Assembly: GCA_964573385.1 (NCBI GenBank)
Contig: CAZNLA010000001.1
Coordinates: forward strand, 1 to 51,434
Source of the DNA: an uncultured bacterium
GTDB lineage: Bacteria > Armatimonadota > Hebobacteria > CAIYQO01
Length of the DNA stretch: 51,434 nucleotides
Reading direction: 5' to 3'
The notes under the pieces were generated by a model. It was not told the origin of the DNA. It did not search any database and worked only from the letters and a program-made list of their open reading frames with translations. Both the position numbers and the translations under genes were made by a program. Shown piece after piece: positions 1 through 46,803 of the stretch (position 1 is the first letter of the stretch; the number at the start of each line of letters is the position of its first letter).

Positions 1-50
1 GTTCGGTTACCAGAGCTATTGGTGCATCAATGGTATGGAATTCTCTACTC

Positions 51-130
51 GACTATTTGTAATAAAGCCTTAATTACTTATTTAAAATCAGTGAATTATG
101 GTAATATGATAATAGAGGTTCATATTAATT
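51..130 (+). repeat. CRISPR leader-like element, copy 1 (subtype A; only the distal ~80 nt, upstream flank unique)
   Basis: TATTTGTAATAAAGCCTTAATTACT...AAAATCAGTGAATTATGGTAATATGATAAT...ATATTAATTA recurs at 283-396 and 1719-1832. A diverged form recurs at 559-664 and 2216-2320. An extended -10-like TGGTAATAT lies at 99-107, about 25 nt upstream of the first repeat fragment. Confidence 0.75.
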
Positions 131-282
131 AAATGCCGAAGGCATTGAAACGAACTTTGCAACGAGTATCTATCATTGTATTACGTTCGAACGACTAGGA
201 GAATGCCGAAGGCATTGAAACATTTGAACGATCCCACAGGCACCAACACCAGAGTTCGAACGACTAGAAGAATGCCGAAGGC
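131..282 (+). CRISPR. CRISPR mini-array 1 (2 spacers)
   Basis: 3' repeat fragment 131-151 (AAATGCCGAAGGCATTGAAAC), full 37-nt repeat 185-221, and 5' 29-nt repeat fragment 254-282. Spacers are 152-184 and 222-253. The strand is called from the ATTGAAAC 3' end of the repeat (typical Cas6 8-nt handle), the upstream leaders and the downstream terminators. Confidence 0.9.
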
Positions 283-396
283 TTAAATAATTACAAATTG
301 ATAATTACAAATTACAAATTATTTAAAATAAAGTCTTAATTGCTAATTCAAAATCAGTGAATTATGGTAATATGATAATTAAGGTTGATATTAATT
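283..396 (+). repeat. Leader-like inter-array element, copy 2 (subtype A)
   Basis: It follows the truncated repeat ending ...GCCGAAGGC at 282. It has internal short tandem ATAATTACAAATT units and TGGTAATAT at 365-373. It ends ...ATATTAATTA directly before the 3' repeat fragment. Confidence 0.8.
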
Positions 397-558
397 AAAT
401 GCCGAAGGCATTGAAACAGGGTTGCACGGTTGCGACCGCTGCGTAAACGTACGGTAGTTCGAACGACTATAAGAATGCCGAAGGCATTGAAACGCGATGA
501 AATCAGGTCGGTTCGATCAGGTATCAGAGGTTGCAACGACTAGAAGAATGCCGAAGGC
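397..558 (+). CRISPR. CRISPR mini-array 2 (2 spacers)
   Basis: 3' repeat fragment 397-417, full repeat 457-493 (variant ...GACTATAAG...), and 5' fragment 530-558 (variant GTTGCAAC...). Spacers are 418-456 and 494-529. Confidence 0.9.
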
Positions 559-664
559 ATAAATAATTGCAAATTGATAATTGCAAATTGTAAATTATTT
601 GTAATAAAGCCTTAATTACTAATTCAAAATCAGTGGATTTTGGTATCATATAAATTATGTTTCA
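559..664 (+). repeat. Leader-like inter-array element, copy 3 (subtype B)
   Basis: ATAAATAATTGCAAATTGATAATTGCAAATTGTAAATTATTTGTAATAAAGCC...AATCAGTGGATTTTGGTATCATATAAATTATGTTTCA. It carries the TGGTATCAT extended -10-like box. Confidence 0.8.
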
Positions 665-1718
665 GGCTATAAGAATGCCGAAGGCATTGAAACTCCAAAT
701 CTTGCTTGTTTTCATTTTTTAAGGTTCCGTTCGAACGACTAGAAGAATGCCGAAGGCATTGAAACTTGCCACTGTTTATGTTTACAGTGAACTTAACGTG
801 TGAGTTCGAACGACTAGAAGAATGCCGAAGGCATTGAAACTAATTTAAACTTCAAACGTGTGCGTATGCGTCGACCGGTTCGAATGACTAGAAGAATGCC
901 GAAGGCATTGAAACCATCCAACTTCTGGCATTTCATTTTCTTCTGGAATTGCGGTTCGAACGACTAGAAGAATGCCGAAGGCATTGAAACTTACTCAAGT
1001 CGGTCAAAAGATCACGGTCAGTATCTGGTTCGAACGACTAGAAGAATGCCGAAGGCATTGAAACATAGCGCGTCGCGTTCCTCGACGGTCATGCGATGTT
1101 CGAACGACTAGAAGAATGCCGAAGGCATTGAAACGGATCCATGACATTCATAAGTGGGGCATCGGCGTTATGTTCGAACGACTAGAAGAATGCCGAAGGC
1201 ATTGAAACGATGTTGATAAGTTTCATTTGATTGCTCCTTTTAAGGTTCGAACGACTAGAAGAATGCCGAAGGCATTGAAACTATTTAGTCAAAAAATCGT
1301 TACCTTGCATTTGTTGACCGTTCGAACGACTAGAAGAATGCCGAAGGCATTGAAACGTAGTTGTAATTCCGTTGGTGCCATTAATGCCATGTTCGAACGA
1401 CTAGAAGAATGCCGAAGGCATTGAAACGATCTTTGGTGGATAATTATTCCACACATTGGCCGGGGTTGTTCGAACGACTAGAAGAATGCCGAAGGCATTG
1501 AAACGTGCATTGTCAACACACCAGTGTTTGCCACCCATGAAGTTCGAACGACTAGAAGAATGACGAAGGCATTGAAACGTGGCTGAAAATAGGTATACGA
1601 TCTGTCCAGCTAAGTTCGAACGACTAGAAGAATGCCGAAGGCATTGAAACTTCTTAAGCAAATTAATTATAACTTCAGTAATTGCCCATGTTCGAACGAC
1701 TAGAAGAATGCCGAAGGC
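665..1718 (+). CRISPR. CRISPR mini-array 3 (14 spacers)
   Basis: 3' repeat fragment 665-693 (GGCTATAAGAATGCCGAAGGCATTGAAAC). Thirteen full 37-nt repeats start at 729, 804, 878, 954, 1028, 1098, 1172, 1245, 1320, 1391, 1468, 1542 and 1614. The 5' 29-nt fragment is 1690-1718. Spacers are 33-40 nt and all different. Confidence 0.95.
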
Positions 1719-1832
1719 TTAAATAATTAAAAATTGATAATTACAAATTACAAATTATTTAAAATAAAGTCTAAATTACTAATTCAAAATCAGTGAATTA
1801 TGGTAATATAATAATTAAGGTTCATATTAATT
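1719..1832 (+). repeat. Leader-like inter-array element, copy 4 (subtype A)
   Basis: Near-identical to 283-396 (TTAAATAATTAAAAATTGATAATTACAAATTACAAATTATTTAAAATAAAGTC...GTGAATTATGGTAATATAATAATTAAGGTTCATATTAATTA). Confidence 0.8.
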
Positions 1833-2215
1833 AAATGCCGAAGGCATTGAAACAGAACTGCTCCTGCCACTTTGGTTTTAACAATGTGTTCGAACGACTA
1901 GAAGAATGCCGAAGGCATTGAAACGAAGCATTTTTGCTAACAACTGCTTTGACTGCAGTGATGTTCGAACGACTAGAAGAATGCCGAAGGCATTGAAACT
2001 CTGGGTCAAGAGTATTACCCTTGAGCATCAGTTCTTGTTCGAACGACTAGAAGAATGCCGAAGGCATTGAAACGCCAAAAATGTCGATCACCCCTACGAG
2101 CAGATATGCTGTTCGAACGACTAGAAGAATGCCGAAGGCATTGAAACGGGCGGACATCGATAACTTTTATTGTCCAAGCATCCTTGGTTCGAACGAATAG
2201 AAGAATGCCGAAGGC
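1833..2215 (+). CRISPR. CRISPR mini-array 4 (5 spacers)
   Basis: 3' repeat fragment 1833-1853, full repeats at 1888, 1963, 2037 and 2111, and 5' fragment 2187-2215. Spacers are 34-39 nt. Confidence 0.95.
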
Positions 2216-2320
2216 TTTAATAATTACAAATTAATAATTACAAATTACAAATTATTTTAAATAAAGTCTTAATTACTAATTCAAAATCAGTGGATTTTGG
2301 TATCATGTAAATTGTGGTTC
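2216..2320 (+). repeat. Leader-like inter-array element, copy 5 (subtype B)
   Basis: TTTAATAATTACAAATTAATAATTACAAATTACAAATTATTTTAAATAAAGTC...AATCAGTGGATTTTGGTATCATGTAAATTGTGGTTCA. Confidence 0.8.
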
Positions 2321-2568
2321 AGGCTATAAGAATGCCGAAGGCATTGAAACACGAGTCGGTATTGCATTCCTTCGAGCTCAAATGCCTTGTTGCAACGACT
2401 ATAAGAATGCCGTAGGCATTGAAACGCTCCTGGTTGAATCTGAAAACTACCACGAGTGGCTGAGTTGCAACGACTATAAGAATGCCGAAGGCATTGAAAC
2501 AAATTTTTCATGACTTGCTCCCTTTGAAAAGATGTTATCGTTGCAACGACTAGAAGAATGCCGAAGGC
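2321..2568 (+). CRISPR. CRISPR mini-array 5 (3 spacers; GTTGCAACGACTATAAG repeat variant)
   Basis: 3' repeat fragment 2321-2350, full repeats 2389-2425 and 2464-2500, and 5' fragment 2540-2568. It is followed by only the first ~18 nt of the inter-array element (2569-2586) and then unique sequence. Confidence 0.9.
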
Positions 2569-2622
2569 TTTAATAATTACAAATTGAAAAGGATTGTCCA
2601 AAACTTAATCAACCAGAAGTAT

Positions 2623-2646
2623 TCCGAGCATCCTCCTCGGATTTTT
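2623..2646 (+). terminator. Rho-independent terminator-like hairpin 1 downstream of the CRISPR locus
   Basis: TCCGAG (2623-2628) pairs with CTCGGA (2636-2641) around a 7-nt loop and is followed by TTTTT (2642-2646). Confidence 0.55.
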
Positions 2647-2672
2647 GCGAGCAAGATGCTCGCAATACTTTT
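2645..2672 (+). terminator. Rho-independent terminator-like hairpin 2
   Basis: Perfect 9-bp stem TTGCGAGCA (2645-2653) / TGCTCGCAA (2657-2665) with a 3-nt loop, followed by TACTTTT. Confidence 0.55.
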
Positions 2673-2702
2673 GGTTATTGCAATTGTCTTTAGTAATTAA
2701 AG

Positions 2703-2770
2703 AATCTGTGAATCCTTTAATCATGTGAATAGTGGTTCAGGCTATAAGAATGCCGTATGTTATGAAAGGC
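2703..2770 (+). repeat. Degenerate subtype-B leader plus decayed repeat remnant
   Basis: AATCTGTGAATCCTTTAATCATGTGAATAGTGGTTCAGGCTATAAGAATGCCGTATGTTATGAAAGGC aligns with AATCAGTGGATTTTGGTATCATGTAAATTGTGGTTCAGGCTATAAGAATGCCGAAGGCATTGAAAC (2283-2350). Confidence 0.7.
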
Positions 2771-2789
2771 TATATCTAAGGAGAATATA

Positions 2790-2948
2790 ATGAATAAATT
2801 ACCAGAAGATCACGCTAAAAAGGTTTGTAAGATGTTCCAGGGTGCAGAATCATGTGCTTTTCTTGTACATAATTTTGATGGAGATGAGTTCACCTTTGCT
2901 TGTGCTAAGGGTGACCCTCTTGAGTTTAATATTCTTAAAAAAAATTAG
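2790..2948 (+). CDS. Small hypothetical ORF (52 aa), probably the N-terminal part of a split Cys-rich protein
   Basis: ATG at 2790 is preceded by AAGGAG (2778-2783). It translates to MNKLPEDHAKKVCKMFQGAESCAFLVHNFDGDEFTFACAKGDPLEFNILKKN. The stop comes directly after an A8 tract (2937-2944). This ORF is below the 60-aa cutoff of the supplied track. Confidence 0.4.
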   Translation: MNKLPEDHAKKVCKMFQGAESCAFLVHNFDGDEFTFACAKGDPLEFNILKKN

Positions 2949-2958
2949 CGAAGGCACT

Positions 2959-3201
2959 ATGAAGTCGAAAGGCAATCATTGTAGTGGCTACGGTGCTGAT
3001 ACGGCTAAAGTTTGTACTACTATTTGTAAAAATTCTGGTTCTCTCTGTTCGTTTTGTAATAATTATGATGTTATGTCTTGTCGATATAACGTGAATTCAT
3101 CACTTAAGATTTCATGTATCCCGACATGTGAAAGACCGGGAGGGCCTTGTCCTGAAGGTGAAACATTTTATGAGAAGGCTGGAGCAAAGTTTGAAAAATA
3201 G
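2959..3201 (+). CDS. Cys-rich hypothetical protein (80 aa from ATG 2959; the frame is open from 2842)
   Basis: MKSKGNHCSGYGADTAKVCTTICKNSGSLCSFCNNYDVMSCRYNVNSSLKISCIPTCERPGGPCPEGETF... contains 11 Cys. The frame is +1 relative to ORF 2790-2948 and would fuse to it if the A8 tract lost one A. Confidence 0.35.
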   Translation: MKSKGNHCSGYGADTAKVCTTICKNSGSLCSFCNNYDVMSCRYNVNSSLKISCIPTCERPGGPCPEGETFYEKAGAKFEK

Positions 3202-3211
3202 ATGAATAAAG

Positions 3212-3241
3212 TTGACGGGATTTGAAAGGCAGTGCTACAAT
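3212..3241 (+). promoter_or_regulatory. Sigma70-like promoter candidate for the CARF operon
   Basis: TTGACG (3212-3217), an 18-nt spacer, then TACAAT (3236-3241), about 165 nt upstream of ATG 3406. Confidence 0.4.
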
Positions 3242-3405
3242 AATGACATGATTATAACCGTTTATATCGGTTAGAGAAGTTGGACTTCATTATGCCGCTG
3301 GAAGCCCGATAATATTAAGAAAATGAAATCTCACGACAAACAGTGGTATATAGGTTAAAGTTGTGTCCAAACAATCGGATGTGGCACAGATAAAAGGATA
3401 TATTT

Positions 3406-4701
3406 ATGAAATACTTATTGCTTACAGTGGGTGGATCCTATCAACCGTTAGTGAGAGCTATTACCACATTAGAACCAGATCATGTCGTGTTTTTATGTTC
3501 AAAAGACACAACCGAAGGCAAAGGATCATACACACAAGTTACGGGTGCAGGACTGGTGTGTGGTGGCAGACCCGGGCAACCTGCAGACCAACCATGCATA
3601 CCTGCTCAAACTGGTTTAGCTCCAGACCAATATAACTTATCAATCTATGATATTGACCCCGATGATTTGAGTGATTGTTATAGTAAATGTGCAAATGTTA
3701 TACAACAGATACGCGCAAATGATTCACAGGCAAATATATACGCAGATTATACCGGCAGTACTAAATCAATGTCAGCAGGTTTGGCGTGTGCGGCATTAGA
3801 TGATGGTAAGATAAATATTATGTTGGTGACCGGTTTTCGACCAAACCTGGTTGCAGTACAGGATGGTTGCGAATTTCTTACTCGTGCTAAGGTTGAATCA
3901 GTTATTTTATTACGGATAAAAAAAGAGATAAACAGGTTATTAAAATCTTATGATTACGCATCAGCAGAGAAAGTATTGCGTGTTTACCTGTCTGACACAA
4001 CTAATAACATGGTAAGTGAATGGTTGGCTATTTGTAAGGCTTTTGATGCCTGGGATAGGTTCGACCATAAATCTGCCATAAAATTCCTGAATTCAACTAA
4101 AAAGTATCCCAAACATATAGCATTTCTTGGTAAATTAGAGGATATTATAACTGCTGATGCTGGTAAAGTTGAAGATAAAGATGCGGTAGAACCTAACCCG
4201 AAGATTGGATTTATGCTGGTTACAGATATTTTAGCGAATGCTCGCAGAAGGGCCAGTCAGGGACGATATGATGATGCCATAGGCCGACATTACAGAGCAG
4301 TTGAATTAATAGCGCAAACATTGTTATTGGTTAAGTGTGGGATAAAAACAAGTGAATGTCCTGTTGCTGAAATACCTGCGGAATGGATGTGGAAGATAGA
4401 CGAAGGGCAAACTGAGATTAAATTAGGATTAATGAAATCATGGGAATTAACGGCTTATAAATGTCCAGAAATTGCTGAACAATATAAATTATTTAAATCA
4501 CAATTATTAAGTGCTATTGAACGAAGAAATATGAGCCTTTTTGCACATGGTACAGTTCCAATAAATAAACAAGATTATGAAGATGATGTTAAAAACGGAA
4601 TGGCCGCATTTGCAGATATGATATTAAAAATAATAGCGAAAGATAAGAAAATTACTCCTCCGGATATGTTTTCTCCGGATTTTGTAACAGAATTAGAATG
4701 A
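3406..4701 (+). CDS. CARF-HEPN protein, Cas02710 (TIGR02710)-like type III CRISPR accessory effector
   Basis: 431-aa ORF. The N-terminus has the CARF-type start MKYLLLTVGGSYQP and DYTGSTKSMSAG (DxTGGTK-like). The C-terminus has ANARRRASQGRYDDAIGRHYRAVE and ERRNMSLFAHG (Rx4-6H HEPN-type motif, nt 4522-4551). The family is recalled from memory, not searched. Confidence 0.7.
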   Translation: MKYLLLTVGGSYQPLVRAITTLEPDHVVFLCSKDTTEGKGSYTQVTGAGLVCGGRPGQPADQPCIPAQTGLAPDQYNLSIYDIDPDDLSDCYSKCANVIQQIRANDSQANIYADYTGSTKSMSAGLACAALDDGKINIMLVTGFRPNLVAVQDGCEFLTRAKVESVILLRIKKEINRLLKSYDYASAEKVLRVYLSDTTNNMVSEWLAICKAFDAWDRFDHKSAIKFLNSTKKYPKHIAFLGKLEDIITADAGKVEDKDAVEPNPKIGFMLVTDILANARRRASQGRYDDAIGRHYRAVELIAQTLLLVKCGIKTSECPVAEIPAEWMWKIDEGQTEIKLGLMKSWELTAYKCPEIAEQYKLFKSQLLSAIERRNMSLFAHGTVPINKQDYEDDVKNGMAAFADMILKIIAKDKKITPPDMFSPDFVTELE

Positions 4702-4711
4702 CGGTTTACTT

Positions 4712-6220
4712 ATGACTATTGATAAAAAAACAGCTTTAATATTGTTTGCGTCAGAACAGGTGTGGCCAAATCTGCTAAGTATAGAGTGGTATCACCAAAA
4801 CGCTAATTTAACCAATGTGTATATATACCACACAAATGATGAACAACGATCGGCAATGCCTGCACAGAGAATAAAAAAGTTTTGCGAACTTCAATATCCT
4901 GACCTGCAATGCGTAATGCCCATAGATGGTATGCCAATGACACCGGATAAAGTTGTTGAGCAGGTATCAGCATGGTATGACGGAAATCAAGAGATATCGA
5001 ATTGGGTTATAAATGCTACTGGTGGTACAAAATTAATATTTGCCGGTGCGGTTAATACATTAATAATGCAAAATAGATTAAGAAAATGGGATTTTATTTA
5101 CTGTGAGTTGGGTGGATGGTATGGTTTGTCCCTTGATTTGTTGGGGTTGATAATCGCTGATAAAATGGATGGAAAATTTATCCCCTTTGATACACTAAAT
5201 AATGTGCCACTGCTTAATCTTATTAAAACACAATTTCAAAGTAAAGATGATTTGATATGGTATGCAGGGACAAAAGAGATATTTACATCAATCAGCATGG
5301 ATAATATGAGAACTATGCTGAGTCTGGGTGAATCGGAGAATTGGAATTGGAAAAAGCTATTTCAACAAATTGATGTTAACCCGGAAAATACATCAAGTGG
5401 TTTATTATTTGAACAATTCATTGCGGCTTCAATAATGTTGATAGGATTAGATAAAAGTCAAATCGACATAAATGTTGTTTCTAAAAGTAAAGAACATGGG
5501 AATGTGCAGCAAGAAATTGATGTTATAGTAAATAATAACGGCCGATTGATTATCTTTGATTGTAAATTAAAAGATGTAGATTCGGAAAGTGATGCTTTTA
5601 TAACACATATAAAAGCATCACATGATACCACGCAAATGTTAGGAGGATTAAATGCTCAATGTGTAATGATTCGTCCTAACAGAATTGTAAATGATGAAGA
5701 AAAGTTGATTGCATCCGCTTGGCGAGTGAAAATACTGGGACTAAGTGAGTGTAAAAACTTATTTACGGAAATTGGCAAAATAATTCAGATAAATCCACCG
5801 GAAGATATGCTTGCTGTGGAGCAACTTTATTTAAATGACTATAGCATAAAACCCATATTGGTTCCTATTAAAGAATCGGAACGACTTATGGCAGATGACC
5901 AACATATTCTTAGGATTAATTCTATACAGACTTATTTTCAACGAGTAAATTGTTGGGAAAATATAGGATGGGTATCAATAGAGGTCGGGTCAAATATTTG
6001 GATAATCAGAGATGTTTTCTGTGGGATTAAAGATTTTAACAGAACTGATAAAAGGATAGCTTTGGTAAATATGCTTACACAGATATGTGATAATTATCAA
6101 ATAACAATTAGTAAGACAGGAATTTCATGGTATGCTATTATTTTTATTAATAATGATGATAAAAGAAAAGCATTCAATATCTGGATAGATGACAGTGCAA
6201 CAAATCATAATTTGTTATAA
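4712..6220 (+). CDS. Can2/Card1-like CARF + PD-(D/E)xK nuclease with an extra C-terminal region
   Basis: 502-aa ORF. ALILFASEQVWPNLL and INATGGTKLIFAG are DUF1887/Card1-type CARF motifs. The nuclease motif is QQEIDVIV-x8-LIIFDCKLKD (nt 5513-5575). About 150 C-terminal aa carry no motif I recognise. Confidence 0.7.
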   Translation: MTIDKKTALILFASEQVWPNLLSIEWYHQNANLTNVYIYHTNDEQRSAMPAQRIKKFCELQYPDLQCVMPIDGMPMTPDKVVEQVSAWYDGNQEISNWVINATGGTKLIFAGAVNTLIMQNRLRKWDFIYCELGGWYGLSLDLLGLIIADKMDGKFIPFDTLNNVPLLNLIKTQFQSKDDLIWYAGTKEIFTSISMDNMRTMLSLGESENWNWKKLFQQIDVNPENTSSGLLFEQFIAASIMLIGLDKSQIDINVVSKSKEHGNVQQEIDVIVNNNGRLIIFDCKLKDVDSESDAFITHIKASHDTTQMLGGLNAQCVMIRPNRIVNDEEKLIASAWRVKILGLSECKNLFTEIGKIIQINPPEDMLAVEQLYLNDYSIKPILVPIKESERLMADDQHILRINSIQTYFQRVNCWENIGWVSIEVGSNIWIIRDVFCGIKDFNRTDKRIALVNMLTQICDNYQITISKTGISWYAIIFINNDDKRKAFNIWIDDSATNHNLL

Positions 6221-6255
6221 TTTGTTAAGGAAATTCAAAATAGAAGGAGCAAATA

Positions 6256-6588
6256 ATGTCGGAACCAGTTATAAAAATAACAGATGTAAAAGTGACCGAA
6301 ACGATTATGCCGGTCAAGCAGATTTCTTTTGAGATACCTGGTGGGAACACCACACCACAGGAGTTTGCTACCGCAGTTTCAAAAATGCCTGAGGTAAGTG
6401 GTAGAAATATAATACTTATAGAAGGCAGAGGGCCTATTTGGGGGTATGGTATGATAATGCATAAAGCACATGCTACCACCGCTATTGGCTGTTTTGATCC
6501 GCGCCTTGAAGGCTATGTAGTTGTGCAGTCGCATAATGACAGTATTGTTGTTGGTCAAATGCTAACGCTGATTTTGAAGGGTGAATAA
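6256..6588 (+). CDS. csx3: Csx3 (Crn3) ring nuclease
   Basis: 110-aa ORF with SD AAGGAG. IILIEGRGPIWGYGMIMHKAH...AIGCFDPRLEGYVVVQSH matches the Csx3 core pattern (GRGPiW ... DPRL.gyvVv.SH). Confidence 0.8.
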   Translation: MSEPVIKITDVKVTETIMPVKQISFEIPGGNTTPQEFATAVSKMPEVSGRNIILIEGRGPIWGYGMIMHKAHATTAIGCFDPRLEGYVVVQSHNDSIVVGQMLTLILKGE

Positions 6589-6590
6589 AG

Positions 6591-7538
6591 ATGTTAGATG
6601 TAATAAAAAGTAAATTTGGAAATCTGAAAAGCTTAATGAAGAAAAATAGAGACGCTATTTGCATAGTGTTTCTCGTTTTGGGCAACCTTACAATTGCCGA
6701 TTTTGTAACAGAAGGTTTAAAAAAGATATTTTCATTCCTTTTTGCTGAACAAAAGCCTACAGTATATTTTACTGTAGAAAATTTCTGGTTATATTTTACA
6801 ACAATTGTTTCAATATTCATATTTGTATGGTTCTCTTTTATGATTTATAAACTTAAAGAGAGTTTTACCAGAGTTAGAACATTGGAATTATATGAAAGTA
6901 GAAAACCGCACAAAGGATTAATAATATTATTGTCAACACCCACCATGGGTATTAATGTAACATTTAATACCGGTATTCAGTTGTGGAGTATTAATAATAA
7001 AGGTACATCTGTTGATTTTAATGGTCAAAGTTTAGACGATGATGTTGAAGCACTGGCGTTATCACCAATAGGTTGTAATTGGGAGATGTTAATGCGAGGA
7101 ATAAATGCAAATTTACCTAAATTGGAAAAAGTAATTTTGATTTGCTCTGCTGTTGGGAAGAAACCAAATGGGGACCCATTACCAGGATCGGTATCAAATT
7201 ATGAAGATGCGAAGCAAATAATAGACCATTACACCATGCCCAATGATGAGGTTTCTATTGTCACAAAATTTCCTGATGATATGAACGGGGTTGATTTTGA
7301 GGATTTGGATGCATTGACCCATGTGTTGCAAGATGCTATTGACTATCTTCATCATAAATGTCAAATACCTCACCGGGAAATACTTATTGATGTTACCGGA
7401 GGACAGAAAGTTACCAGTATTGCCGGTGCTTTGATTACTTTAAAGAATGAAGTGAAGATTCAGTATGTTCCAACAGGGAACACAAACACAATTAAGTTGT
7501 ATAACACTGTCATGGAAGACGCACCTGACATGGGATGA
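6591..7538 (+). CDS. Membrane-anchored CARF protein (Cam1-like architecture: 2 TM helices + CARF)
   Basis: 315-aa ORF that starts 3 nt after the csx3 stop. The TM segments are AICIVFLVLGNLTIADFV and FWLYFTTIVSIFIFVWFSFMIY. The CARF-like elements are HKGLIILLSTP, VILICSAVG and LIDVTGGQKVTSIAGAL (nt ~7386-7420). Confidence 0.6.
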   Translation: MLDVIKSKFGNLKSLMKKNRDAICIVFLVLGNLTIADFVTEGLKKIFSFLFAEQKPTVYFTVENFWLYFTTIVSIFIFVWFSFMIYKLKESFTRVRTLELYESRKPHKGLIILLSTPTMGINVTFNTGIQLWSINNKGTSVDFNGQSLDDDVEALALSPIGCNWEMLMRGINANLPKLEKVILICSAVGKKPNGDPLPGSVSNYEDAKQIIDHYTMPNDEVSIVTKFPDDMNGVDFEDLDALTHVLQDAIDYLHHKCQIPHREILIDVTGGQKVTSIAGALITLKNEVKIQYVPTGNTNTIKLYNTVMEDAPDMG

Positions 7539-7697
7539 TAAATTATAAAAAAAGAATATAAATTAGTTCTGAATATTATATTTGGTGCATTATTAGTCGC
7601 ATTTTTCCCTGCGGTATGGGGTGCGTTTTGCTATTATTTAATTGCATTACCATCGCGTGTTTCCATTAGCATACTAATTGTCGGTATTATAATTGGC

Positions 7698-8279
7698 ATG
7701 ATTGCAGATGGCTTGTTGCGACGTTTTATGCCGAGTTTTGAAGTTTGGGAGCATGAGTTGACTCATGCGCTGGTAGGTTTGCTGTTTGGCATAATACCTG
7801 TAAAAATAGTTGTAAAAAAAGGAGAAGGCGGAATAGTAAGGCATAAAATCTACACACCGGATTGTCTTTATCCACTGGCTATAGATTTTGTATCGCTTGC
7901 ACCATATGTCTTACCAACGATAACTTTTCTAATGGTGGTATTTCGTCCAATTATTCATAGAGATACTATATCATGCTACGATTTTTTTATTGGACTATCT
8001 TTTGGATATCATATTCTTAGCACAATTCGGGAGTTTAAAAGTAGTTGGACATTAAAGAAATTCCCGAGTGCAGATACGGGTGAATTAATAAATTCAGATA
8101 TTGCTAAAACAGGAATTATATTCTCTACCATATATATTTGTACTGTAACGTTAGCCATCCATGGTGTTATGCTTGCAATAATGATAAAAGGTTATACAGG
8201 AATTAAAGGATGGGCAATACATGTATGGGAACCGACAATAAAGTTACTTGCGTCTATTGCCTCAACATTAGTGCGGTAA
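7698..8279 (+). CDS. Polytopic membrane protein with an HExxH zincin motif (putative membrane metalloprotease)
   Basis: WEHELTHALVG (HELTH at nt 7752-7766) plus several hydrophobic helices. The frame is open back to 7542 and encodes two more hydrophobic helices, but there is no ATG/GTG/TTG there, so the true start is probably upstream and non-canonical. Confidence 0.6.
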   Translation: MIADGLLRRFMPSFEVWEHELTHALVGLLFGIIPVKIVVKKGEGGIVRHKIYTPDCLYPLAIDFVSLAPYVLPTITFLMVVFRPIIHRDTISCYDFFIGLSFGYHILSTIREFKSSWTLKKFPSADTGELINSDIAKTGIIFSTIYICTVTLAIHGVMLAIMIKGYTGIKGWAIHVWEPTIKLLASIASTLVR

Positions 8280-8590: not shown

Positions 8591-11500
8591 ATGTTAAATC
8601 GGCATTGGAGCTTTAATGGTATAATATTTACCATCGTAATATTTTTTACGATGGTGTCTCCTGTTGTTTATGGCGGTGATTTCAAACTTACTGACCCCAA
8701 TCACTATATAATTCTTGTTGATGCCAGTGGTAGCACTGTTCAAAACCAGGTAATTAGATCAGCATATTACAGTGCCGCATCAAAGTTAGTTAAAAATTTA
8801 TTCGAAGATGGGTTTAAACAGGAAGATACTAATATTCCCCGTTTTAAAACAGGCCGTGATTATCTGACGATTTATAATTTTGGTATCGGAAATGGTGGTA
8901 CCAGCAATGCTTATCAACAGATAAAATATTTTTACGATTACTCTTTACAGTATTTACATCCTATTTGCGAGGCAAATAAGAATGTGTCTCAGGATTGGGT
9001 TAAGTCAGTAATTTTCCCGAAGAAAACTTACAACTACTCAATTTATTCATGGGCAAAACCATTAGGACTGGAACATGCGGGTCAAGCAGCACAGAATCTG
9101 CGTATTGCCCATACATACCTTATTGTATTGACAGACGCAAAGCCAAATGGCATTTCTTTAAGTGATGAAGTAATTGAAATTGAACGATTTTCCAATAAAA
9201 AATCACGTGATCAGGAACGTTCAGTGCGTCGTGAAATAGCAAACGGATATTTTTGGGGATTACAATCTGGTGTTGAAGGGCTGGCATATGAGAAGCGAAT
9301 TACAAATAAATTGTCAGGTAGTGCCTGTGACATCTTTATCGAAGGATTTGAGGTTTTTTCCCGTGAACGTCAGCAATATCGATCTTCAGCAAAAGCTTTT
9401 GAACCGTTATCTGCTGCTAATATTCATTGGGTCGAGGACCGTGATGAAGACCCGGTAATAGTTGTTTCTTTGCCAATTTCACCGGAATTTAATAATTGGC
9501 ATGGTAACCTTTCGTCTTTGCAATATTGTCTGCATATCGGATCTGATAATTATGAATGGAACCAGCAAAATGTAAAAAATAACAAGGTTAAAATAACTTT
9601 GAATGGGAAAGCGCCTAAAGGCGGGAGCCTGTTCCTGGACCTATTCTCCAGACGTCTGGAGTCGGATAATATTCTTGGAGAAAGTGCCGTTAATTATCAT
9701 TGGCGTAGTAACATTATACTTCCAGACCGACCCAGTCAAACAATTTGGAATAAGACACAAAGAGCGCTAATAGTTATTGGGTTTATTTTACTCGCTGTTA
9801 TCATAGCATTATTAGTATATTTCGGTGTGTTTTTTCCACATGCATCATTCCTTGTTAATTCATGTGGCAAAGCATTTACTTTGGAATACGGTAATAAATA
9901 TCCAAATTTATCAATATTGGCTCCCAGGCATACCGATGAAATTGTTTTAAAGGTAAAATTAATTCACCCCATTTTACAATGGTTATTTGGGTGGTTACGC
10001 CAGGAGTCTATACAGATAAAATCTACAGATGGTAAAATAATATGGGCCATTCAGGATATGCCTGAAATACTAAAACTGCCATATAATTATAATACTGCAC
10101 ATGCCCAGTGGCAACAATTGCCATCAAAAGAAATTAAAATAGTCATCATCCATAAAGTTTATGGTAAGGAGATAACCCGTATGATTGATGTTACTCGAAA
10201 TGAAGCTATTAATGCGCCGGTAAACAATGGACTACTTGACCATATAATCTCGTTAGACCTTGGTTCAGAATCTATTGCTGCCGCGTATTTCAATACTCAA
10301 CTAGGCGGTGCTCAGGTTATTAATTTACAGGATGTAGCAACAGATTATTATACAGGTAATTTGGTTTATTATTTAAATAACAATTTAAAATCAAATAGGA
10401 TGAAGACCAAGATACAACTAATGGATAATGTAGTACCTGTTAATATCCCGCATTCACATGCAGATATTCTGTTACAGAATATAGCAAATGATTGTTTGTT
10501 TAAATATTTTCAACAGGCAGGATATGGTGGAACAATAAAAAAATGGATGCCAAATCCAAAAGTACTTTTCATGCGAGGTGCCGATAAGAATTTCTTGCCA
10601 TTTGTCAAATCAACGACTCCTGACAGTTATGTGAAAATGCCTCCAGAGACTTTGATTTCACATCTTATAGTACAAATAGTTAATAATTTTGTTATCCCAG
10701 CCCTTTATAATCAGATGTTCAATAATAACAACAATACAATAGCTAATACTGTTTGTTATAATTCAATTCCTAAAGAATCAATCCATCTGGTTATTACAGT
10801 TCCCAATGTTTATAGTTGTATGCATGTTAAAAAAATAATTGATTTTGTTAAAGGCAGATTAGGTTTTGGGGAAGTTACGTCATTATACGAATCTGAAGCA
10901 GTTTCACATTATATTTTGAACTCTAAAACACCAGAGAAAATAGGGACAGGTTTTGGTGACGCAAAAAACCCTTATATCCTTACAATTGATGTCGGTAAAG
11001 GTACGACAGATTTGTCTCTTGGACAACGCAAACTTGCTAGTGATAATAGGCAATATGCTGAATTAGCCAGAACTGGTATCTCTAGCGGTGGTAGCAGGCT
11101 TGATTATATTATTGTTAATCACTTAGAGGAAGTAATTAAATCTGTTTTTAAAAAATATGGTAAAGATTTAGTCGATACAGATACACCGCGGATTAGTTTG
11201 TTACGTGAGTCTGGTGGTACAGAGGTTACTGAAGTAATTACTGTTTTAACAGAAGGTATTCCAAGTAGTGATGGTGGTTTATTACTTGATTTAAAACGTT
11301 CAATGGATGAATATTTTTGTATCAACAGAGATATACTTTCTATAGAGAAACACCGTGAATATGCATTGGAAATTGCTAAAATATATTTAAAGAGTATGGG
11401 ACTCAATAAATTTTTTGGTAGAAATATTTCAGTTGATAAATTTAAAAAAGCATTAGTTTTTCGCGAAATCCTAACACGTTCATTATTATATTGTATAAAC

Positions 11501-12811
11501 GATAAGATTTTATCGTTTGGGAACTTAAAAGATAGGATTGATATATTTAATGAATTTTTACTAAATCTACTAAATAAATCACAGAATGTTAAATTAAATT
11601 ATGATATTAATGATATGAATGTATTCATGTCAAATAACGCAGACTTTGTGAAAGCATGTGAATATTTGAAAAAGAGAGTTAATTTGATTGACAGTTTAAT
11701 AGATTTAGATATAGACAATACAAAAACTCAGATAAATGATGCATATAAAGCAAGTACAGATGAGATAAAGCCTGTAGATGAAATACATATTCAAACTTTC
11801 ATAACATCACTTACAAAATTAAAACAAATTGCACAAAGTTTTTCATGGCAAACAAGCACATACGGTAAATTGATTGATGGAATGCAAAATAACTTTATTT
11901 TTGAAAATATTAATGAATATAAAAAAATGATTTCACAGATAGATGAATTAAATGATGATACTACTTATGCTGTTTTAATAAGAAGAATATTAGACAGTAA
12001 TAAAAAAGTTTTTGAAAATCTAATACCAATATTTAATATATTAATAGCAAAGGATCATCATGTCTATTTTACTAAAACTATCAAATCATTTGATGATATG
12101 ATAATTTTATATGAGAAATTAGCGAAAATGAAGTTTAATTGTGCATTTTCTCCTGAAAGACAGGTGAAAAACAACTTTAAAGACTCATTGAAAAATTATA
12201 TTAATTGTTCTATAAATGATCAGAAAGATAATCTATTTACAATGTTAGAATTATCAACAGGTGGAAAATTTAACAATATGAAAGATAACTTATATGTTGT
12301 AGTAGCTGGTCAGGCTTCTCAATTTAAACCTGTCAGAAAAGCGATTAAAGATATACATGGAGGGGCGTTTTTTCTGGAAGGAGATGAATCTAAAGATGCG
12401 TGTTGTTTAGGAGCAGTTTACCATATTGTTAATATGAACACTCGTCCTAATGCCAATTATCTATTTGGTGAATATGGAGTATATGATACCCAGATTGGTC
12501 CTGGTAGATATAAAAGGATATCTACATTAAGTTTAAACTCTCATCCGCATCAGGCTGAGGTTACCTTTGATAATAGTGCAGGTCGTTCTGTTATATTTTC
12601 AACACGAATTACTCAAGGTGATGAAGCACCTGATATCGAGGATAATATGACAGCAGTCATTATGCCAGTATCAGGGAAAAGTTATAATTTTGAGTATGAT
12701 CCTAAAAATCTAAATATTATTGTAAATGGCAAAGTTTTAGATCCATGTGCGGTAGGAAATGTAGATAAGAAAATTTATGAAAACTTATGGCCAGAGCAAT
12801 TACGCAAATGA
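8591..12811 (+). CDS. Giant vWA - TM - Hsp70/actin-fold ATPase fusion protein
   Basis: 1406 aa. The N-terminal signal/anchor is IIFTIVIFFTMVSPVVYG. The vWA MIDAS-like motif is YIILVDASGST (nt ~8720). The TM segment is ALIVIGFILLAVIIALLVYFGVFF. Hsp70-type motifs are ISLDLGSESIAAAY (phosphate 1, nt ~10254), LVITVPNVYS...YESEAVSHY, LTIDVGKGTTDLS (phosphate 2, nt ~10982), SSGGSRLDYIIVNHL and VVVAGQASQFKPVRKAI (nt ~12298). A long Asn/Lys-rich helical insert is present. Confidence 0.65.
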   Translation: MLNRHWSFNGIIFTIVIFFTMVSPVVYGGDFKLTDPNHYIILVDASGSTVQNQVIRSAYYSAASKLVKNLFEDGFKQEDTNIPRFKTGRDYLTIYNFGIGNGGTSNAYQQIKYFYDYSLQYLHPICEANKNVSQDWVKSVIFPKKTYNYSIYSWAKPLGLEHAGQAAQNLRIAHTYLIVLTDAKPNGISLSDEVIEIERFSNKKSRDQERSVRREIANGYFWGLQSGVEGLAYEKRITNKLSGSACDIFIEGFEVFSRERQQYRSSAKAFEPLSAANIHWVEDRDEDPVIVVSLPISPEFNNWHGNLSSLQYCLHIGSDNYEWNQQNVKNNKVKITLNGKAPKGGSLFLDLFSRRLESDNILGESAVNYHWRSNIILPDRPSQTIWNKTQRALIVIGFILLAVIIALLVYFGVFFPHASFLVNSCGKAFTLEYGNKYPNLSILAPRHTDEIVLKVKLIHPILQWLFGWLRQESIQIKSTDGKIIWAIQDMPEILKLPYNYNTAHAQWQQLPSKEIKIVIIHKVYGKEITRMIDVTRNEAINAPVNNGLLDHIISLDLGSESIAAAYFNTQLGGAQVINLQDVATDYYTGNLVYYLNNNLKSNRMKTKIQLMDNVVPVNIPHSHADILLQNIANDCLFKYFQQAGYGGTIKKWMPNPKVLFMRGADKNFLPFVKSTTPDSYVKMPPETLISHLIVQIVNNFVIPALYNQMFNNNNNTIANTVCYNSIPKESIHLVITVPNVYSCMHVKKIIDFVKGRLGFGEVTSLYESEAVSHYILNSKTPEKIGTGFGDAKNPYILTIDVGKGTTDLSLGQRKLASDNRQYAELARTGISSGGSRLDYIIVNHLEEVIKSVFKKYGKDLVDTDTPRISLLRESGGTEVTEVITVLTEGIPSSDGGLLLDLKRSMDEYFCINRDILSIEKHREYALEIAKIYLKSMGLNKFFGRNISVDKFKKALVFREILTRSLLYCINDKILSFGNLKDRIDIFNEFLLNLLNKSQNVKLNYDINDMNVFMSNNADFVKACEYLKKRVNLIDSLIDLDIDNTKTQINDAYKASTDEIKPVDEIHIQTFITSLTKLKQIAQSFSWQTSTYGKLIDGMQNNFIFENINEYKKMISQIDELNDDTTYAVLIRRILDSNKKVFENLIPIFNILIAKDHHVYFTKTIKSFDDMIILYEKLAKMKFNCAFSPERQVKNNFKDSLKNYINCSINDQKDNLFTMLELSTGGKFNNMKDNLYVVVAGQASQFKPVRKAIKDIHGGAFFLEGDESKDACCLGAVYHIVNMNTRPNANYLFGEYGVYDTQIGPGRYKRISTLSLNSHPHQAEVTFDNSAGRSVIFSTRITQGDEAPDIEDNMTAVIMPVSGKSYNFEYDPKNLNIIVNGKVLDPCAVGNVDKKIYENLWPEQLRK

Positions 12812-12822
12812 GGGATATATAA

Positions 12823-15066: not shown

Positions 15067-15121
15067 GAATCGGGATTAAATACAATTAATACTGGTGATG
15101 AAATGTCACAAGAGGAGCATC

Positions 15122-37286: not shown

Positions 37287-37290
37287 AGTT

Positions 37291-38205: not shown

Positions 38206-38206
38206 A

Positions 38207-41032: not shown

Positions 41033-41096
41033 AATTTCTATTCATACCGTTTAATTTTATGATTTGTAAATCAGATATTGATAAATTGGAGAAAAA

Positions 41097-43145: not shown

Positions 43146-43177
43146 TATTATGAAAATATATAATTTGAAGAAATAAA

Positions 43178-46782: not shown

Positions 46783-46803
46783 TAATTTTAAAGGTGACCC
46801 ATT

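What the first reader, a model, noticed from the sequence alone, without database searches (positions are those of the whole stretch)
3212..8279. Dense cOA-signalling accessory operon (three different CARF effectors + Csx3 + membrane zincin) with no Cas10 complex in 51 kb
Five tightly packed genes (gaps of 2-35 nt for the first four) follow the arrays. They encode a CARF-HEPN protein (Cas02710-like), a CARF-PD-ExK nuclease (Can2/Card1-like), Csx3 (a known cA4 ring nuclease), a TM-CARF protein (Cam1-like) and an HExxH membrane protein. The CARF motif DxTGGxK occurs three times (DYTGSTK, NATGGTK, DVTGGQK). One second-messenger input would thus feed an RNase, a DNase/RNase and a membrane output, with a built-in off switch. 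The cyclase (Cas10) and crRNA-processing genes are absent from the window, so they must lie upstream of position 1 or in trans.
Basis: partly seen in the sequence, partly recalled or inferred. Interest (0 to 1): 0.65.

Follow-up and report, generated by a model that had tools for sequence, protein, structure and literature searches.

The report
Type III CRISPR accessory effector operon
Just after a set of CRISPR arrays sits a tight operon with three different alarm-molecule-activated defence proteins (an RNase, a DNase and a membrane protein) plus the enzyme that destroys the alarm molecule; this gene combination is rare but already described, so the finding is correct and fairly ordinary.

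Summary
Five abutting + strand genes follow the CRISPR arrays.
- ORF1 (3406-4701) is a TIGR02710/Csm6-like CARF-HEPN RNase.
- ORF2 (4712-6220) is a Card1/Can2-type CARF-PD-(D/E)xK nuclease with an extra, unassigned C-terminal domain of about 140 aa.
- ORF3 (6256-6588) is Csx3/Crn3 and keeps all catalytic residues.
- ORF4 (6591-7538) is a CARF protein with two transmembrane (TM) helices.
- ORF5 is a Peptidase_M50B-like HExxH membrane protein.

I re-annotated ORF5. It starts at about 7542 with a non-ATG codon, directly after ORF4's stop, so all five genes abut.

No Cas10, Cmr or Cas6 gene lies anywhere in the 51 kb. Position 1 of the window coincides with an assembly break inside the array region. 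In relatives the same accessory genes sit next to type III-B cmr modules, and Csx3 is often adjacent to the TM-CARF gene (27 of 80 loci). One relative has a related repeat and the order cmr, Can2-like, csx3, cas1/2, arrays.

The most likely mechanism is cA4 made by a Cmr complex encoded upstream or in trans. The cA4 would switch on the RNase, the nuclease and a membrane effector, and Csx3 would reset the signal.

ORF5 relatives are never found in cas contexts, so its link to signalling is unsupported.

The combination Csx1 + Can1-2 + Cam1 was already reported in 3 of 1113 type III loci. Verdict: a new member of a known kind, of modest interest.

The parts
54..2576 (+). CRISPR region: five tandem leader+array modules carrying 26 spacers. 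The 37-nt repeat is GTTCGAACGACTAGAAGAATGCCGAAGGCATTGAAAC, which forms a hairpin and ends in the ATTGAAAC tag.
2623..2665 (+). Two terminator-like hairpins after the last array.
   Evidence: consensus scan only
2703..2777 (+). A sixth leader-like remnant with no array behind it, directly upstream of two small ORFs.
2790..3201 (+). Two small ORFs of unknown function: 2790-2948 (52 aa) and 2959-3201 (80 aa, Cys-rich). It is uncertain whether they belong to the module.
   Evidence: Both are called as genes on ENA contigs L001 and L002. There are no family hits.
3212..3241 (+). Promoter-like site (TTGACG, 18 nt, TG-TACAAT) upstream of ORF1.
   Evidence: consensus match only; the number of such sites in the region is not above chance
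3406..4701 (+). ORF1: CARF-6H-HEPN ribonuclease of the TIGR02710 / Cas_Cas02710 (Csm6/Csx1-type) family. The CARF motif is DYTGSTK and the HEPN motif is R374-NMSLFA-H381.
4712..6220 (+). ORF2: Card1/Can2-type CARF + PD-(D/E)xK nuclease. The CARF motif is NATGGTK; the nuclease residues are E268, D270, D283, K285. It carries an unassigned C-terminal domain of about 140 aa (residues about 365-502).
6256..6588 (+). ORF3: Csx3/Crn3 ring nuclease. The equivalents of AfCsx3 G45, R46, I49, H57, H60, D69, R71 and H80 are all present.
6591..7538 (+). ORF4: membrane CARF effector with two N-terminal TM helices (about residues 20-50 and 62-92) and a C-terminal CARF domain (WxW...H and DVTGGQKVTSIAGA motifs).
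7542..8279 (+). ORF5, re-annotated as 245 aa with a probable ATT/ATA start: a Peptidase_M50B-like polytopic membrane protein with conserved HELTH, PY..P, H157 and D186. It abuts ORF4. Its functional link to cOA signalling is unproven.

Best explanation
This is the ancillary (signalling) operon of a type III CRISPR-Cas system, most likely subtype III-B (Cmr). Its interference genes lie outside the window, probably just upstream of the arrays.

Proposed mechanism:
1. crRNAs processed from the upstream arrays guide a Cas10 complex to invader transcripts (inferred).
2. Cas10 makes cyclic tetra-adenylate, cA4 (inferred).
3. cA4 binds the CARF domains of three effectors: ORF1, a HEPN RNase that would cleave RNA non-specifically; ORF2, a Card1/Can2-type PD-(D/E)xK nuclease acting on DNA and/or ssRNA; and ORF4, a two-TM CARF protein that would perturb or depolarise the membrane by analogy with Cam1 and Cap1.
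4. ORF3 (Csx3/Crn3) cleaves cA4 and switches all three effectors off.

What is shown here: the family and fold assignments, intact catalytic and ligand-binding motifs, the operon-like packing, and the recurrence of the same genes next to cmr modules in relatives.

What is inferred: the identity of the messenger, the activities, and the location of Cas10.

ORF5 (M50B-like) is co-oriented and abuts ORF4. It is most likely a neighbouring membrane-protein gene with no demonstrated role in signalling.
For: Family assignments:
- ORF1: TIGR02710, 200 bits; PADLOC CARF_HEPN 4e-116; HEPN motif RNxSxxAH; the best solved relative is T. thermophilus Csm6 5FSH, matched over residues 86-406.
- ORF2: a family profile hits Card1 at 1.4e-12 and Can2 at 2.4e-6. 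The AF2 model has Card1, Can2, VC1899 and Cdn1 (several solved with cA4 bound) as top Foldseek hits at about 1e-14 to 1e-11. The nuclease residues are invariant in the family.
- ORF3: Csx3 is above the Pfam and NCBIfam cut-offs and matches AfCsx3 at 3e-10, with every catalytic residue described in PMC7371418 conserved.
- ORF4: PADLOC 'TM+CARF' 4.8e-32. The AF2 model has pLDDT 81, two long N-terminal helices and an alpha/beta domain. Its best PDB fold match is the cA4-bound Cam1 CARF domain, prob 1.0, TM-score on the target 0.62.

Context in relatives:
- TM-CARF homologues lie in cmr loci and are directly followed by csx3 (L009, L010, L011).
- Among 80 metagenome loci, 27 have an adjacent Csx3, and 26 of the 36 loci of at least 8 kb carry cmr/cas10.
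- A homologue attributed by its source to Tepidimonas taiwanensis is the last gene of a cmr-cas6 operon (L097).
- ORF2's only full-length homologue (44% identity) follows cmr6 and is itself followed by a csx3 that is 53% identical to ORF3, then RT-cas1 and cas2, then arrays whose repeat shares the 3' half GAATGCCGA.AGGCATTGAAAC with the window's repeat.

Literature:
- cA4 effectors commonly co-occur.
- Csx1 + Can1-2 + Cam1 was seen in 3 of 1113 loci (PMC11229360).
- Can1-2 and Cam1 loci carry ring nucleases in 66% and 81% of cases (PMC12409355).
Against: - No Cas10, Cmr, Csm or Cas6 gene lies in the 51 kb, and the DNA upstream of position 1 could not be recovered.
- No activity or ligand specificity was measured. 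The specificity of ORF1 (cA4 or cA6) rests on a weak match to TtCsm6 and on co-occurrence rules.
- ORF4 is not a sequence-level relative of any characterised membrane effector.
- Some TM-CARF loci show no cas10 within 10 kb, for example L028 and L018. My HMMs were built from III-B genes only, so they may miss other subtypes.
Confidence: 0.8

Rival explanations
1. Orphan or in-trans island. The arrays and CARF genes are not attached to a local Cas10 module. They either serve a type III locus elsewhere in the genome or are a remnant left after the interference genes were lost.
For: - No Cas10, Cmr or Cas6 in 51 kb.
- 10 of the 36 TM-CARF loci of at least 8 kb had no cmr/cas10 hit. L028 carries TM-CARF + Can2-like next to a resolvase and an R-M methylase, with no array and no cas10 within 10 kb.
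- PMC11229360 notes that effectors and cyclases can be encoded in separate loci.
Against: - The arrays are intact: most repeats are identical and there are 26 distinct spacers. They lie directly upstream on the same strand.
- Window position 1 is an assembly break inside the repeat region, so absence upstream is not evidence.
- The closest relative has cmr genes within 13 kb on the far side of its arrays.
Confidence: 0.15
2. Mixed-messenger module. The three CARF proteins do not share one ligand. For example, ORF1 could be a cA6-type Csm6 while ORF2 and ORF4 respond to cA4, so the operon would integrate two signals.
For: - ORF1 also gives a very weak hit to the III-A Csm6 model TIGR02672 (E 8e-4, far below its cut-off).
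- CARF ligand specificity cannot be read from sequence.
Against: - ORF1's best solved relative is T. thermophilus Csm6; that this enzyme is cA4-activated is from my own knowledge, not a tool result.
Confidence: 0.1
3. ORF5 is a functional output. The M50B-like intramembrane metalloprotease works with the TM-CARF protein ORF4, for example through cA4-gated regulated intramembrane proteolysis of ORF4 or of a membrane-bound regulator.
For: - ORF5 starts 0-3 nt after ORF4's stop, which is compatible with translational coupling.
- HExxH and a conserved Asp and His are retained.
- 34 of 43 family members match Peptidase_M50B.
- A proteolytic cA4 output has a precedent in CalpL, cited in PMC11229360.
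Against: - No M50B-like gene occurs in any of 80 TM-CARF loci.
- ORF5 relatives P0002, P0032 and P0033 lie in non-CRISPR contexts.
- The family is large (1786 representative clusters), as expected for a general membrane protein.
- ORF5 itself scores below the Pfam cut-off (18.8 against 26 bits) and lacks a canonical start codon.
Confidence: 0.06

Closest known systems
Type III CRISPR loci with the triple effector set Csx1 + Can1-2 + Cam1 (Hoikkala et al., NAR 2024, PMC11229360)
   Same: The same three effector classes occur in one locus: a CARF-HEPN RNase, a CARF-PD-(D/E)xK nuclease and a TM-CARF protein. All are presumed to be cA4-activated.
   Different: - Here the set is packed as one operon around a single Csx3, downstream of the arrays rather than beside cas10.
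- The Can2-type protein has an extra C-terminal domain.
- The TM-CARF protein has two TM helices.
Card1 (Treponema succinifaciens, PDB 6WXW/6XL1) and Can2 (PDB 7BDV, 8BAO, 8Q3Y)
   Same: - The CARF + PD-(D/E)xK architecture.
- Profile E 1.4e-12 to Card1.
- Top Foldseek hits.
- Conserved nuclease residues.
   Different: - ORF2 is 502 aa, against 341-437 residues in the matched chains.
- Residues about 365-502 form an extra domain, modelled at low confidence as beta-beta-beta-alpha-beta-beta-alpha. The word-index search found only one other full-length protein that carries it, P0028.
- Sequence identity to solved structures is 11-15%.
Csx3/Crn3 of Archaeoglobus fulgidus (AF_1864; PDB 3WZI, 6YUD)
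   Same: - The Csx3 fold family.
- H57, H60, D69, R71, H80, G45, R46 and I49 equivalents are all conserved.
- Expected to be a Mn-dependent cA4 ring nuclease.
   Different: - The equivalent of S44 is Glu.
- There is a one-residue insertion before the equivalent of H80.
- Activity was not tested.
Cam1 (Nitrosococcus halophilus; PDB 8T64-8T66) and Cap1 (bioRxiv 10.1101/2025.11.13.688252)
   Same: - An N-terminal membrane anchor plus a cytosolic cOA sensor.
- Found in type III loci together with ring nucleases.
- ORF4's CARF domain is structurally closest to the Cam1 CARF domain.
- Like Cap1, ORF4 has two TM segments and a Csx3 neighbour.
   Different: - Cam1 is 206 aa with one TM helix, and ORF4's family shows no significant sequence similarity to it (E 1.2).
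- Cap1 has a divergent 'CARF-like' domain plus DUF4579. ORF4 has a canonical CARF motif and no Pfam match to DUF4579.
- ORF4's family is listed in PADLOC as 'TM+CARF' and 'CARF8--CARF_TM'. None of the membrane CARF effector papers I read (Cam1, Cap1, Chp1) describes a protein with its architecture.
Thermus thermophilus Csm6 (PDB 5FSH) / TIGR02710 family
   Same: - The CARF-6H-HEPN layout.
- The HEPN R-x6-H motif.
- The NCBIfam equivalog score is well above its cut-off.
   Different: The match to the solved protein is only remote (profile E 1.7e-4), and the ligand was not tested.

Membership tests
TIGR02710 / Cas_Cas02710 CARF-HEPN (Csm6/Csx1-type RNase) - ORF1 | Whole-protein score above the curated family cut-off | tested here: met
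   NCBIfam TIGR02710: 200.2 bits against a cut-off of 83.9. Pfam PF09670: 90.2 bits against 27.
TIGR02710 / Cas_Cas02710 CARF-HEPN - ORF1 | HEPN catalytic R-x4-6-H motif | tested here: met
   R374-NMSLFA-H381. R374, N375, S377 and H381 are also conserved in the L010 homologue.
TIGR02710 / Cas_Cas02710 CARF-HEPN - ORF1 | N-terminal CARF domain with a Gly/Thr-rich ligand loop | tested here: met
   DYTGSTKSMSAG motif. PADLOC CARF1--CARF_HEPN covers residues 2-415 at E 4e-116.
TIGR02710 / Cas_Cas02710 CARF-HEPN - ORF1 | cOA-activated RNase activity | not testable with these tools
   Needs biochemistry.
Card1/Can2 (CARF + PD-(D/E)xK nuclease) - ORF2 | CARF_Card1 and Card1_endonuc domains above Pfam gathering scores | tested here: met
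   27.3 bits against 24.6 and 29.2 bits against 26.4. The family profile hits Card1 at 1.4e-12 and Can2 at 2.4e-6.
Card1/Can2 - ORF2 | Intact PD-(D/E)xK catalytic residues | tested here: met
   E268 and D270 are invariant. The D283-C284-K285 motif is kept, with D or E at position 283 across the 5-member family alignment.
Card1/Can2 - ORF2 | Overall fold matches solved Card1/Can2 structures | tested here: met
   Foldseek E 2.7e-14 to 1e-11, TM-score on the target 0.5-0.64, for residues about 1-365.
Card1/Can2 - ORF2 | Two-domain architecture only (about 340-440 aa) | tested here: not met
   There is an extra C-terminal region of about 140 aa with no Pfam hit, modelled at low pLDDT and shared only with P0028. 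ORF2 is a variant architecture within the family.
Csx3/Crn3 ring nuclease - ORF3 | Family score above curated cut-offs | tested here: met
   Pfam: 77.4 bits against 21. NCBIfam TIGR02579: 63.9 bits against 55.4.
Csx3/Crn3 ring nuclease - ORF3 | Catalytic and cA4-binding residues H57, H60, D69, R71, H80 (AfCsx3 numbering) | tested here: met
   They map to H69, H72, D81, R83 and H93 of ORF3 in the HMMER alignment to 3WZI. The residue roles are from PMC7371418.
Csx3/Crn3 ring nuclease - ORF3 | Mn-dependent cleavage of cA4 | not testable with these tools
   Needs biochemistry.
Cam1 (CRISPR-associated membrane effector 1) - ORF4 | Single N-terminal TM helix with a conserved pore-lining Asp, in a protein of about 200 aa | tested here: not met
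   ORF4 is 315 aa. It has two hydrophobic segments (residues 21-41 and 65-89) and two long helices in the AF2 model. The Cam1 description is from PMC10808066.
Cam1 - ORF4 | Sequence homology to Cam1 | tested here: not met
   The ORF4-family profile against the PDB gives Cam1 8T64 at E 1.2. The best hit is the Crn1 (Sso2081) CARF domain at 0.004.
Cam1 - ORF4 | C-terminal CARF domain of Cam1-like fold | tested here: met
   The best Foldseek PDB hit is cA4-bound Cam1 8T65_B: E 5e-3, prob 1.0, TM-score on the target 0.62. The DVTGGQKxxSIAGA motif is invariant in the family.
TM-CARF families of PADLOC ('TM+CARF' PDLC01053; CARF8--CARF_TM) - ORF4 | Profile match over TM region + CARF domain, and residence in type III loci | tested here: met
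   E 4.8e-32 and 6.8e-29 over residues about 28-308. Relatives lie in cmr loci.
Peptidase_M50B-like membrane metalloprotease - ORF5 | Pfam PF13398 score above the gathering threshold | tested here: not met
   ORF5 scores 18.8 bits against 26. However, 34 of 43 sampled members of its HMMER family match PF13398, the best at 1.4e-9. ORF5 is therefore a related but divergent family.
Peptidase_M50B-like - ORF5 | HExxH in a TM helix plus a downstream acidic metal ligand | tested here: inconclusive
   H71-E72-x-x-H75 is nearly invariant, and D186 and H157 are conserved. Which residue would be the third ligand is not established, and no structure was modelled.
Type III CRISPR-Cas locus (the whole system) | Cas10 with a cyclase domain plus Csm/Cmr subunits in the locus | tested here: not met
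   None is present in the 51-kb window. The DNA upstream of the arrays is unavailable.
Type III CRISPR-Cas locus (the whole system) | CRISPR array whose repeat ends in the 8-nt tag ATTGAAAC after a hairpin | tested here: met
   The 37-nt repeat forms the hairpin AAUGCC-GAA-GGCAUU and ends in GAAAC. A related repeat lies beside cmr genes in L012.

The most novel reading that the evidence does not exclude
The two-TM CARF protein (ORF4) and the abutting M50B-like intramembrane metalloprotease (ORF5) might form a cA4-gated regulated-intramembrane-proteolysis output. This would be a membrane counterpart of the CalpL protease pathway and would add a fourth kind of response to the RNase, the nuclease and the ring nuclease. 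The unique C-terminal domain of the Can2-type nuclease (ORF2) might also confer a new specificity.
Probability: 0.05. Interest if true: 0.7.

Novelty: new member of a known kind. Interest (0 to 1): 0.3.

Why it matters
The locus is a clean natural example of one second messenger, probably cA4, wired to three different effector chemistries (RNA, DNA, membrane) with a single dedicated off-switch. That combination was seen in only 3 of 1113 surveyed type III loci.

It offers compact material for testing whether multiple effectors act synergistically. It also contains two uncharacterised variants: a Can2-type nuclease with an extra C-terminal domain, and a two-TM CARF family that is recurrently paired with Csx3 in III-B loci.

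It does not change current understanding of type III signalling.

Tried and rejected
1. **Recovering the DNA upstream of position 1.**
   - Exact-protein look-ups returned only short ENA contigs. One of them (L001) matches the window over 7093 nt with 1 mismatch and ends exactly at position 1.
   - ORF5 and the last ORF of the window are not on record.
2. **Scanning collections for the repeat.** The genome collection gave two single chance hits, in an Armatimonadota MAG and an Acidobacteriaceae MAG. The metagenome collection gave none.
3. **Looking for protospacers.** Three spacers found no match in the viral contigs. No spacer has a self-match in the window.
4. **A terminator and promoter between ORF4 and ORF5.** The terminator-like site at 7607 and the promoter-like site at 7666 suggested that ORF5 is a separate unit. 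I rejected this because both lie inside the extended ORF5 coding region.
5. **Synteny with the neighbours of P0002.** I suspected that the genes beside P0002 in L003 (685 aa, 273 aa, DHH) matched the window genes at 41-44 kb. BLAST found no similarity.
6. **Synteny with L028.** I suspected synteny through the Liv-type ABC transporter. Identity is only 23-44%, so I treat it as coincidence.
7. **The 80-aa ORFs.** The Cys-rich 80-aa ORF upstream of ORF1 is not homologous to the 80-aa ORF beside Cas02710 in L010.
8. **Phage origin.** PHROGs gave no hits for ten ORFs that had no confident family assignment.
9. **Known RNA families.** Rfam gave no match in the window.
10. **ORF2's C-terminal domain and ORF6.** The C-terminal domain has no Pfam hit, a low-confidence model, and no other copy among 97 loci. 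ORF6 has no informative PDB match; the only hit is a designed repeat protein at E 0.037.

Full report
**Observation.** The region 3212-8279 holds five co-oriented + strand ORFs: ORF1 3406-4701 (431 aa), ORF2 4712-6220 (502 aa), ORF3 6256-6588 (110 aa), ORF4 6591-7538 (315 aa) and ORF5 (listed as 7698-8279, 193 aa). The gaps between the first four are 10, 35 and 2 nt. Upstream, between 54 and 2576, lie 26 copies of the 37-nt repeat GTTCGAACGACTAGAAGAATGCCGAAGGCATTGAAAC. The repeat folds into a short hairpin and ends in the ATTGAAAC tag. The arrays are therefore read on the + strand, like the genes.

**ORF1.** ORF1 scores 200 bits on NCBIfam TIGR02710 (cut-off 83.9), 90 bits on Pfam Cas_Cas02710 ('Csm6 HEPN domain') and E 4e-116 on PADLOC CARF1--CARF_HEPN. 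It carries the HEPN motif R374-NMSLFA-H381. A two-sequence profile finds Thermus thermophilus Csm6 (5FSH) over residues 86-406 at E 1.7e-4.

**ORF2.** ORF2 matches CARF_Card1 and Card1_endonuc just above the Pfam gathering scores. A five-member family profile hits Card1 at 1.4e-12 and Can2 at 2.4e-6. Its AlphaFold model (pLDDT 76.8) has Card1, Can2, VC1899 and Cdn1 as top PDB fold matches, at 2.7e-14 to 1e-11. The nuclease residues E268, D270, D/E283 and K285 are conserved. Residues about 365-502 form an extra region with no Pfam hit. The model there has low confidence. The region is shared only with P0028, the one other full-length homologue found.

**ORF3.** ORF3 is Csx3/Crn3, above the cut-offs of both Pfam and NCBIfam. 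It aligns to A. fulgidus Csx3 at 3e-10. Mapping the residues described in PMC7371418 onto that alignment, the equivalents of G45, R46, I49, H57, H60, D69, R71 and H80 are all present, so an active cA4 ring nuclease is expected.

**ORF4.** ORF4 matches the PADLOC models 'TM+CARF' (4.8e-32) and 'CARF8--CARF_TM' (6.8e-29). It has two hydrophobic segments. In a 23-member family alignment it keeps the invariant W..W...H and D-x-TGG-x-K-xx-SIAGA motifs. Its model (pLDDT 80.9) shows two long N-terminal helices and an alpha/beta domain. The best PDB fold match of the model is the cA4-bound Cam1 CARF domain: E 5e-3, prob 1.0, TM-score on the target 0.62. At the sequence level the family is not detectably related to Cam1 (E 1.2). 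It also differs in architecture from Cam1, which has one TM helix and 206 aa (PMC10808066), and from Cap1, which has two TM helices, a divergent CARF-like domain and DUF4579 (bioRxiv 2025.11.13.688252).

**ORF5, re-annotated.** The mechanical ORF list starts ORF5 at ATG 7698. The 52 in-frame codons from 7542 contain no stop. They align with the N-termini of homologues P0002 (47% identity overall) and P0003, the latter from its first residue. The gene therefore most likely begins at ATT 7542 or ATA 7545, directly after ORF4's TGA TAA. It then encodes a 245-aa polytopic membrane protein. The terminator-like and promoter-like hits at 7607 and 7666 fall inside this coding sequence and are discounted.

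A word-index search found only four relatives. An exhaustive HMMER search with the family profile found 1786 representative clusters, 820 of them at E 1e-10 or better. Of 43 sampled members, 34 match Pfam Peptidase_M50B, the best at 1.4e-9. ORF5 itself is below the cut-off at 18.8 bits against 26. H71, E72, H75, H157 and D186 are conserved. 'Membrane zincin' is therefore a fair description.

Nothing ties the family to CRISPR. P0002, P0032 and P0033 all sit in unrelated contexts. None of the 80 TM-CARF loci carries an M50B-like gene.

**No Cas10 in the window, and why that is not surprising.**
- Pfam and PADLOC scans of the other large ORFs found transporters, methyltransferases, response-regulator fusions and many unassigned proteins, but no cas genes.
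- HMMs built from the Cas10 and Cmr1/3/4/5/6 genes of related loci found nothing in any six-frame ORF of the window.
- An independent ENA contig (L001) matches window 1-7093 with one mismatch and ends exactly at position 1. The window therefore starts at an assembly break in the repeat region, and what lies upstream is simply unknown.
- Scans for the repeat in the genome and metagenome collections did not recover the organism.

**Relatives.** The TM-CARF homologues P0012 and P0008 lie in type III-B cmr loci, and each is immediately followed by csx3. One of these loci also has a Cas02710 CARF-HEPN gene. A homologue attributed by its source to Tepidimonas taiwanensis is the last gene of a cmr1-cas10-cmr3-4-5-6-cas6 operon that also encodes a DUF1874-type ring nuclease and a CARF protein.

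ORF2's only full-length homologue (P0028, 44% identity) directly follows cmr6. It is followed in turn by a csx3 that is 53% identical to ORF3, then a small TM protein with a weak SAVED match, an FHA/reverse-transcriptase protein, an AEP-like protein, cas1 and cas2. Long arrays come next, whose repeat GTTAGAATGGTTAGCGAATGCCGACAGGCATTGAAAC shares its 3' half with the window's repeat. Further accessory genes follow the arrays.

In 80 metagenome loci encoding ORF4 relatives, a local HMM scan gave these counts:

| Feature | Count |
|---|---|
| Csx3 adjacent to the TM-CARF gene | 27 of 80 |
| Same, among loci with at least 350 nt on both sides | 21 of 53 |
| cmr/cas10 present, among loci of at least 8 kb | 26 of 36 |
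| Can2-like gene | 5 of 80 |
| M50B-like gene | 0 of 80 |

The window's order Can2-like, Csx3, TM-CARF thus merges two recurrent pairs (Can2-like + Csx3 and TM-CARF + Csx3) around one ring nuclease.

**Mechanism.** The best-supported reading is a cA4 signalling operon.
1. A Cmr-type complex, encoded upstream of the arrays or in trans, senses target RNA, and Cas10 makes cA4.
2. cA4 activates the HEPN RNase (ORF1), the Card1/Can2-type nuclease (ORF2) and the membrane CARF effector (ORF4).
3. Csx3 (ORF3) degrades cA4 to end the response.

The family, fold and motif assignments and the genomic associations are shown here. The ligand, the activities and the location of the cyclase are inferred. cA4 is favoured for four reasons:
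- Csx3 and all other characterised ring nucleases preferentially degrade cA4.
- Card1, Can2 and Cam1 were solved with cA4 bound.
- Can1-2 and Cam1 loci carry ring nucleases in 66% and 81% of cases (PMC11229360, PMC12409355).

**Comparison with what is known, and novelty.** Hoikkala et al. (PMC11229360) state that three co-occurring effectors are rare, but that Csx1 + Can1-2 + Cam1 was found in 3 of 1113 loci. The present operon is another instance of that known, rare configuration. The variant features are:
- the C-terminal extension of the Can2-type protein;
- a two-TM CARF family that is catalogued in PADLOC but that none of the membrane CARF effector papers I read describes;
- the abutting M50B-like gene;
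- placement downstream of an unusually segmented array region.

I classify it as a new member of a known kind, with interest 0.3. The most novel reading not excluded is that ORF4 and ORF5 form a cA4-gated intramembrane proteolysis module. Comparative genomics argues against it, and I put its probability at about 5%.

**Dead ends.** Spacer searches in viral contigs, Rfam, PHROGs, a PDB sequence search with ORF6 and the apparent synteny leads from L003 and L028 gave nothing useful.

Noticed in passing
window 54-2777: The CRISPR region is not one array. It consists of five tandem leader+array modules with 2, 2, 14, 5 and 3 spacers, plus a sixth leader remnant that has no array. Each AT-rich unit of about 115 nt is flanked on its left by a terminal repeat that keeps only its 5' 29 nt. 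On its right it is flanked by only the 3' 20 nt of a repeat (the hairpin plus the ATTGAAAC tag). As a result, the 12 nt AATGCCGAAGGC occur on both sides of the unit. This could be repeated leader duplication, or an element inserted inside repeats with a 12-nt duplication. The unit occurs nowhere else in the window.
   Followed up: partly
window 7542-7697: ORF5 appears to start at a non-canonical codon (ATT 7542 or ATA 7545) right after ORF4's double stop TGA TAA. No ATG, GTG or TTG occurs before 7698, yet the 52 upstream codons are conserved with homologues. Alternatively, the gene may have lost its start codon.
   Followed up: partly
window 5804-6217 (ORF2 residues about 365-502): The Can2/Card1-type nuclease has an extra C-terminal region with no family match and a low-confidence beta-beta-beta-alpha-beta-beta-alpha model. 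Only one other protein carrying it was found: P0028, which sits in a cmr locus.
   Followed up: partly
window 2790-3201: Two small ORFs (52 aa, and 80 aa with 10 Cys) lie between the last leader remnant and ORF1. Both are also called as genes on the independent ENA contigs. They match nothing in Pfam, PADLOC or PHROGs.
   Followed up: partly
window 8591-20545: Three very large membrane-anchored ORFs (1406, 747 and 1816 aa) lie directly downstream of the operon. They have no significant Pfam or PADLOC match, and ORF6 and ORF7 also have no PHROGs match. ORF6 has a DASGST (DxSxS, vWA-like) motif near its N-terminus and DLGSE / DVGKGTTD motifs reminiscent of actin/Hsp70-type ATPases. These are motif-level observations only. 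ORF8 has at least 12 hydrophobic segments.
   Followed up: partly
window 34653-50238: This is a cluster of large proteins that carry response-regulator receiver domains: 877, 953, 887 and 1144 aa. One of them (38171-41032) fuses a receiver domain to a HerA/DUF87 domain and a TrwB/TraG-type coupling-protein ATPase. Several unassigned ORFs lie between them.
   Followed up: no
window, whole: Every ORF of more than about 250 aa across the 51 kb is on the + strand, and GC skew is positive throughout. GC content is low, 26-39%.
   Followed up: no
L012 7906-12435: The related III-B locus carries several genes between csx3 and cas2: a small TM protein with a weak SAVED match, an FHA + reverse-transcriptase protein, an AEP (primase-polymerase-like) protein and cas1. 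It contains two repeat variants within one array region and duplicated spacers.
   Followed up: no
L028 9980-12492: A TM-CARF gene directly followed by a 541-aa Can2-like gene sits next to a resolvase and an Eco57I-type R-M methylase. No array and no cas10 lie within 10 kb. This could be an example of CARF effectors detached from a Cas10 module.
   Followed up: partly
L009 10797-12769: One cmr locus with a TM-CARF gene carries two csx3 genes plus HepT-like and TumE-like genes and an AF_1859_N-domain gene downstream.
   Followed up: no
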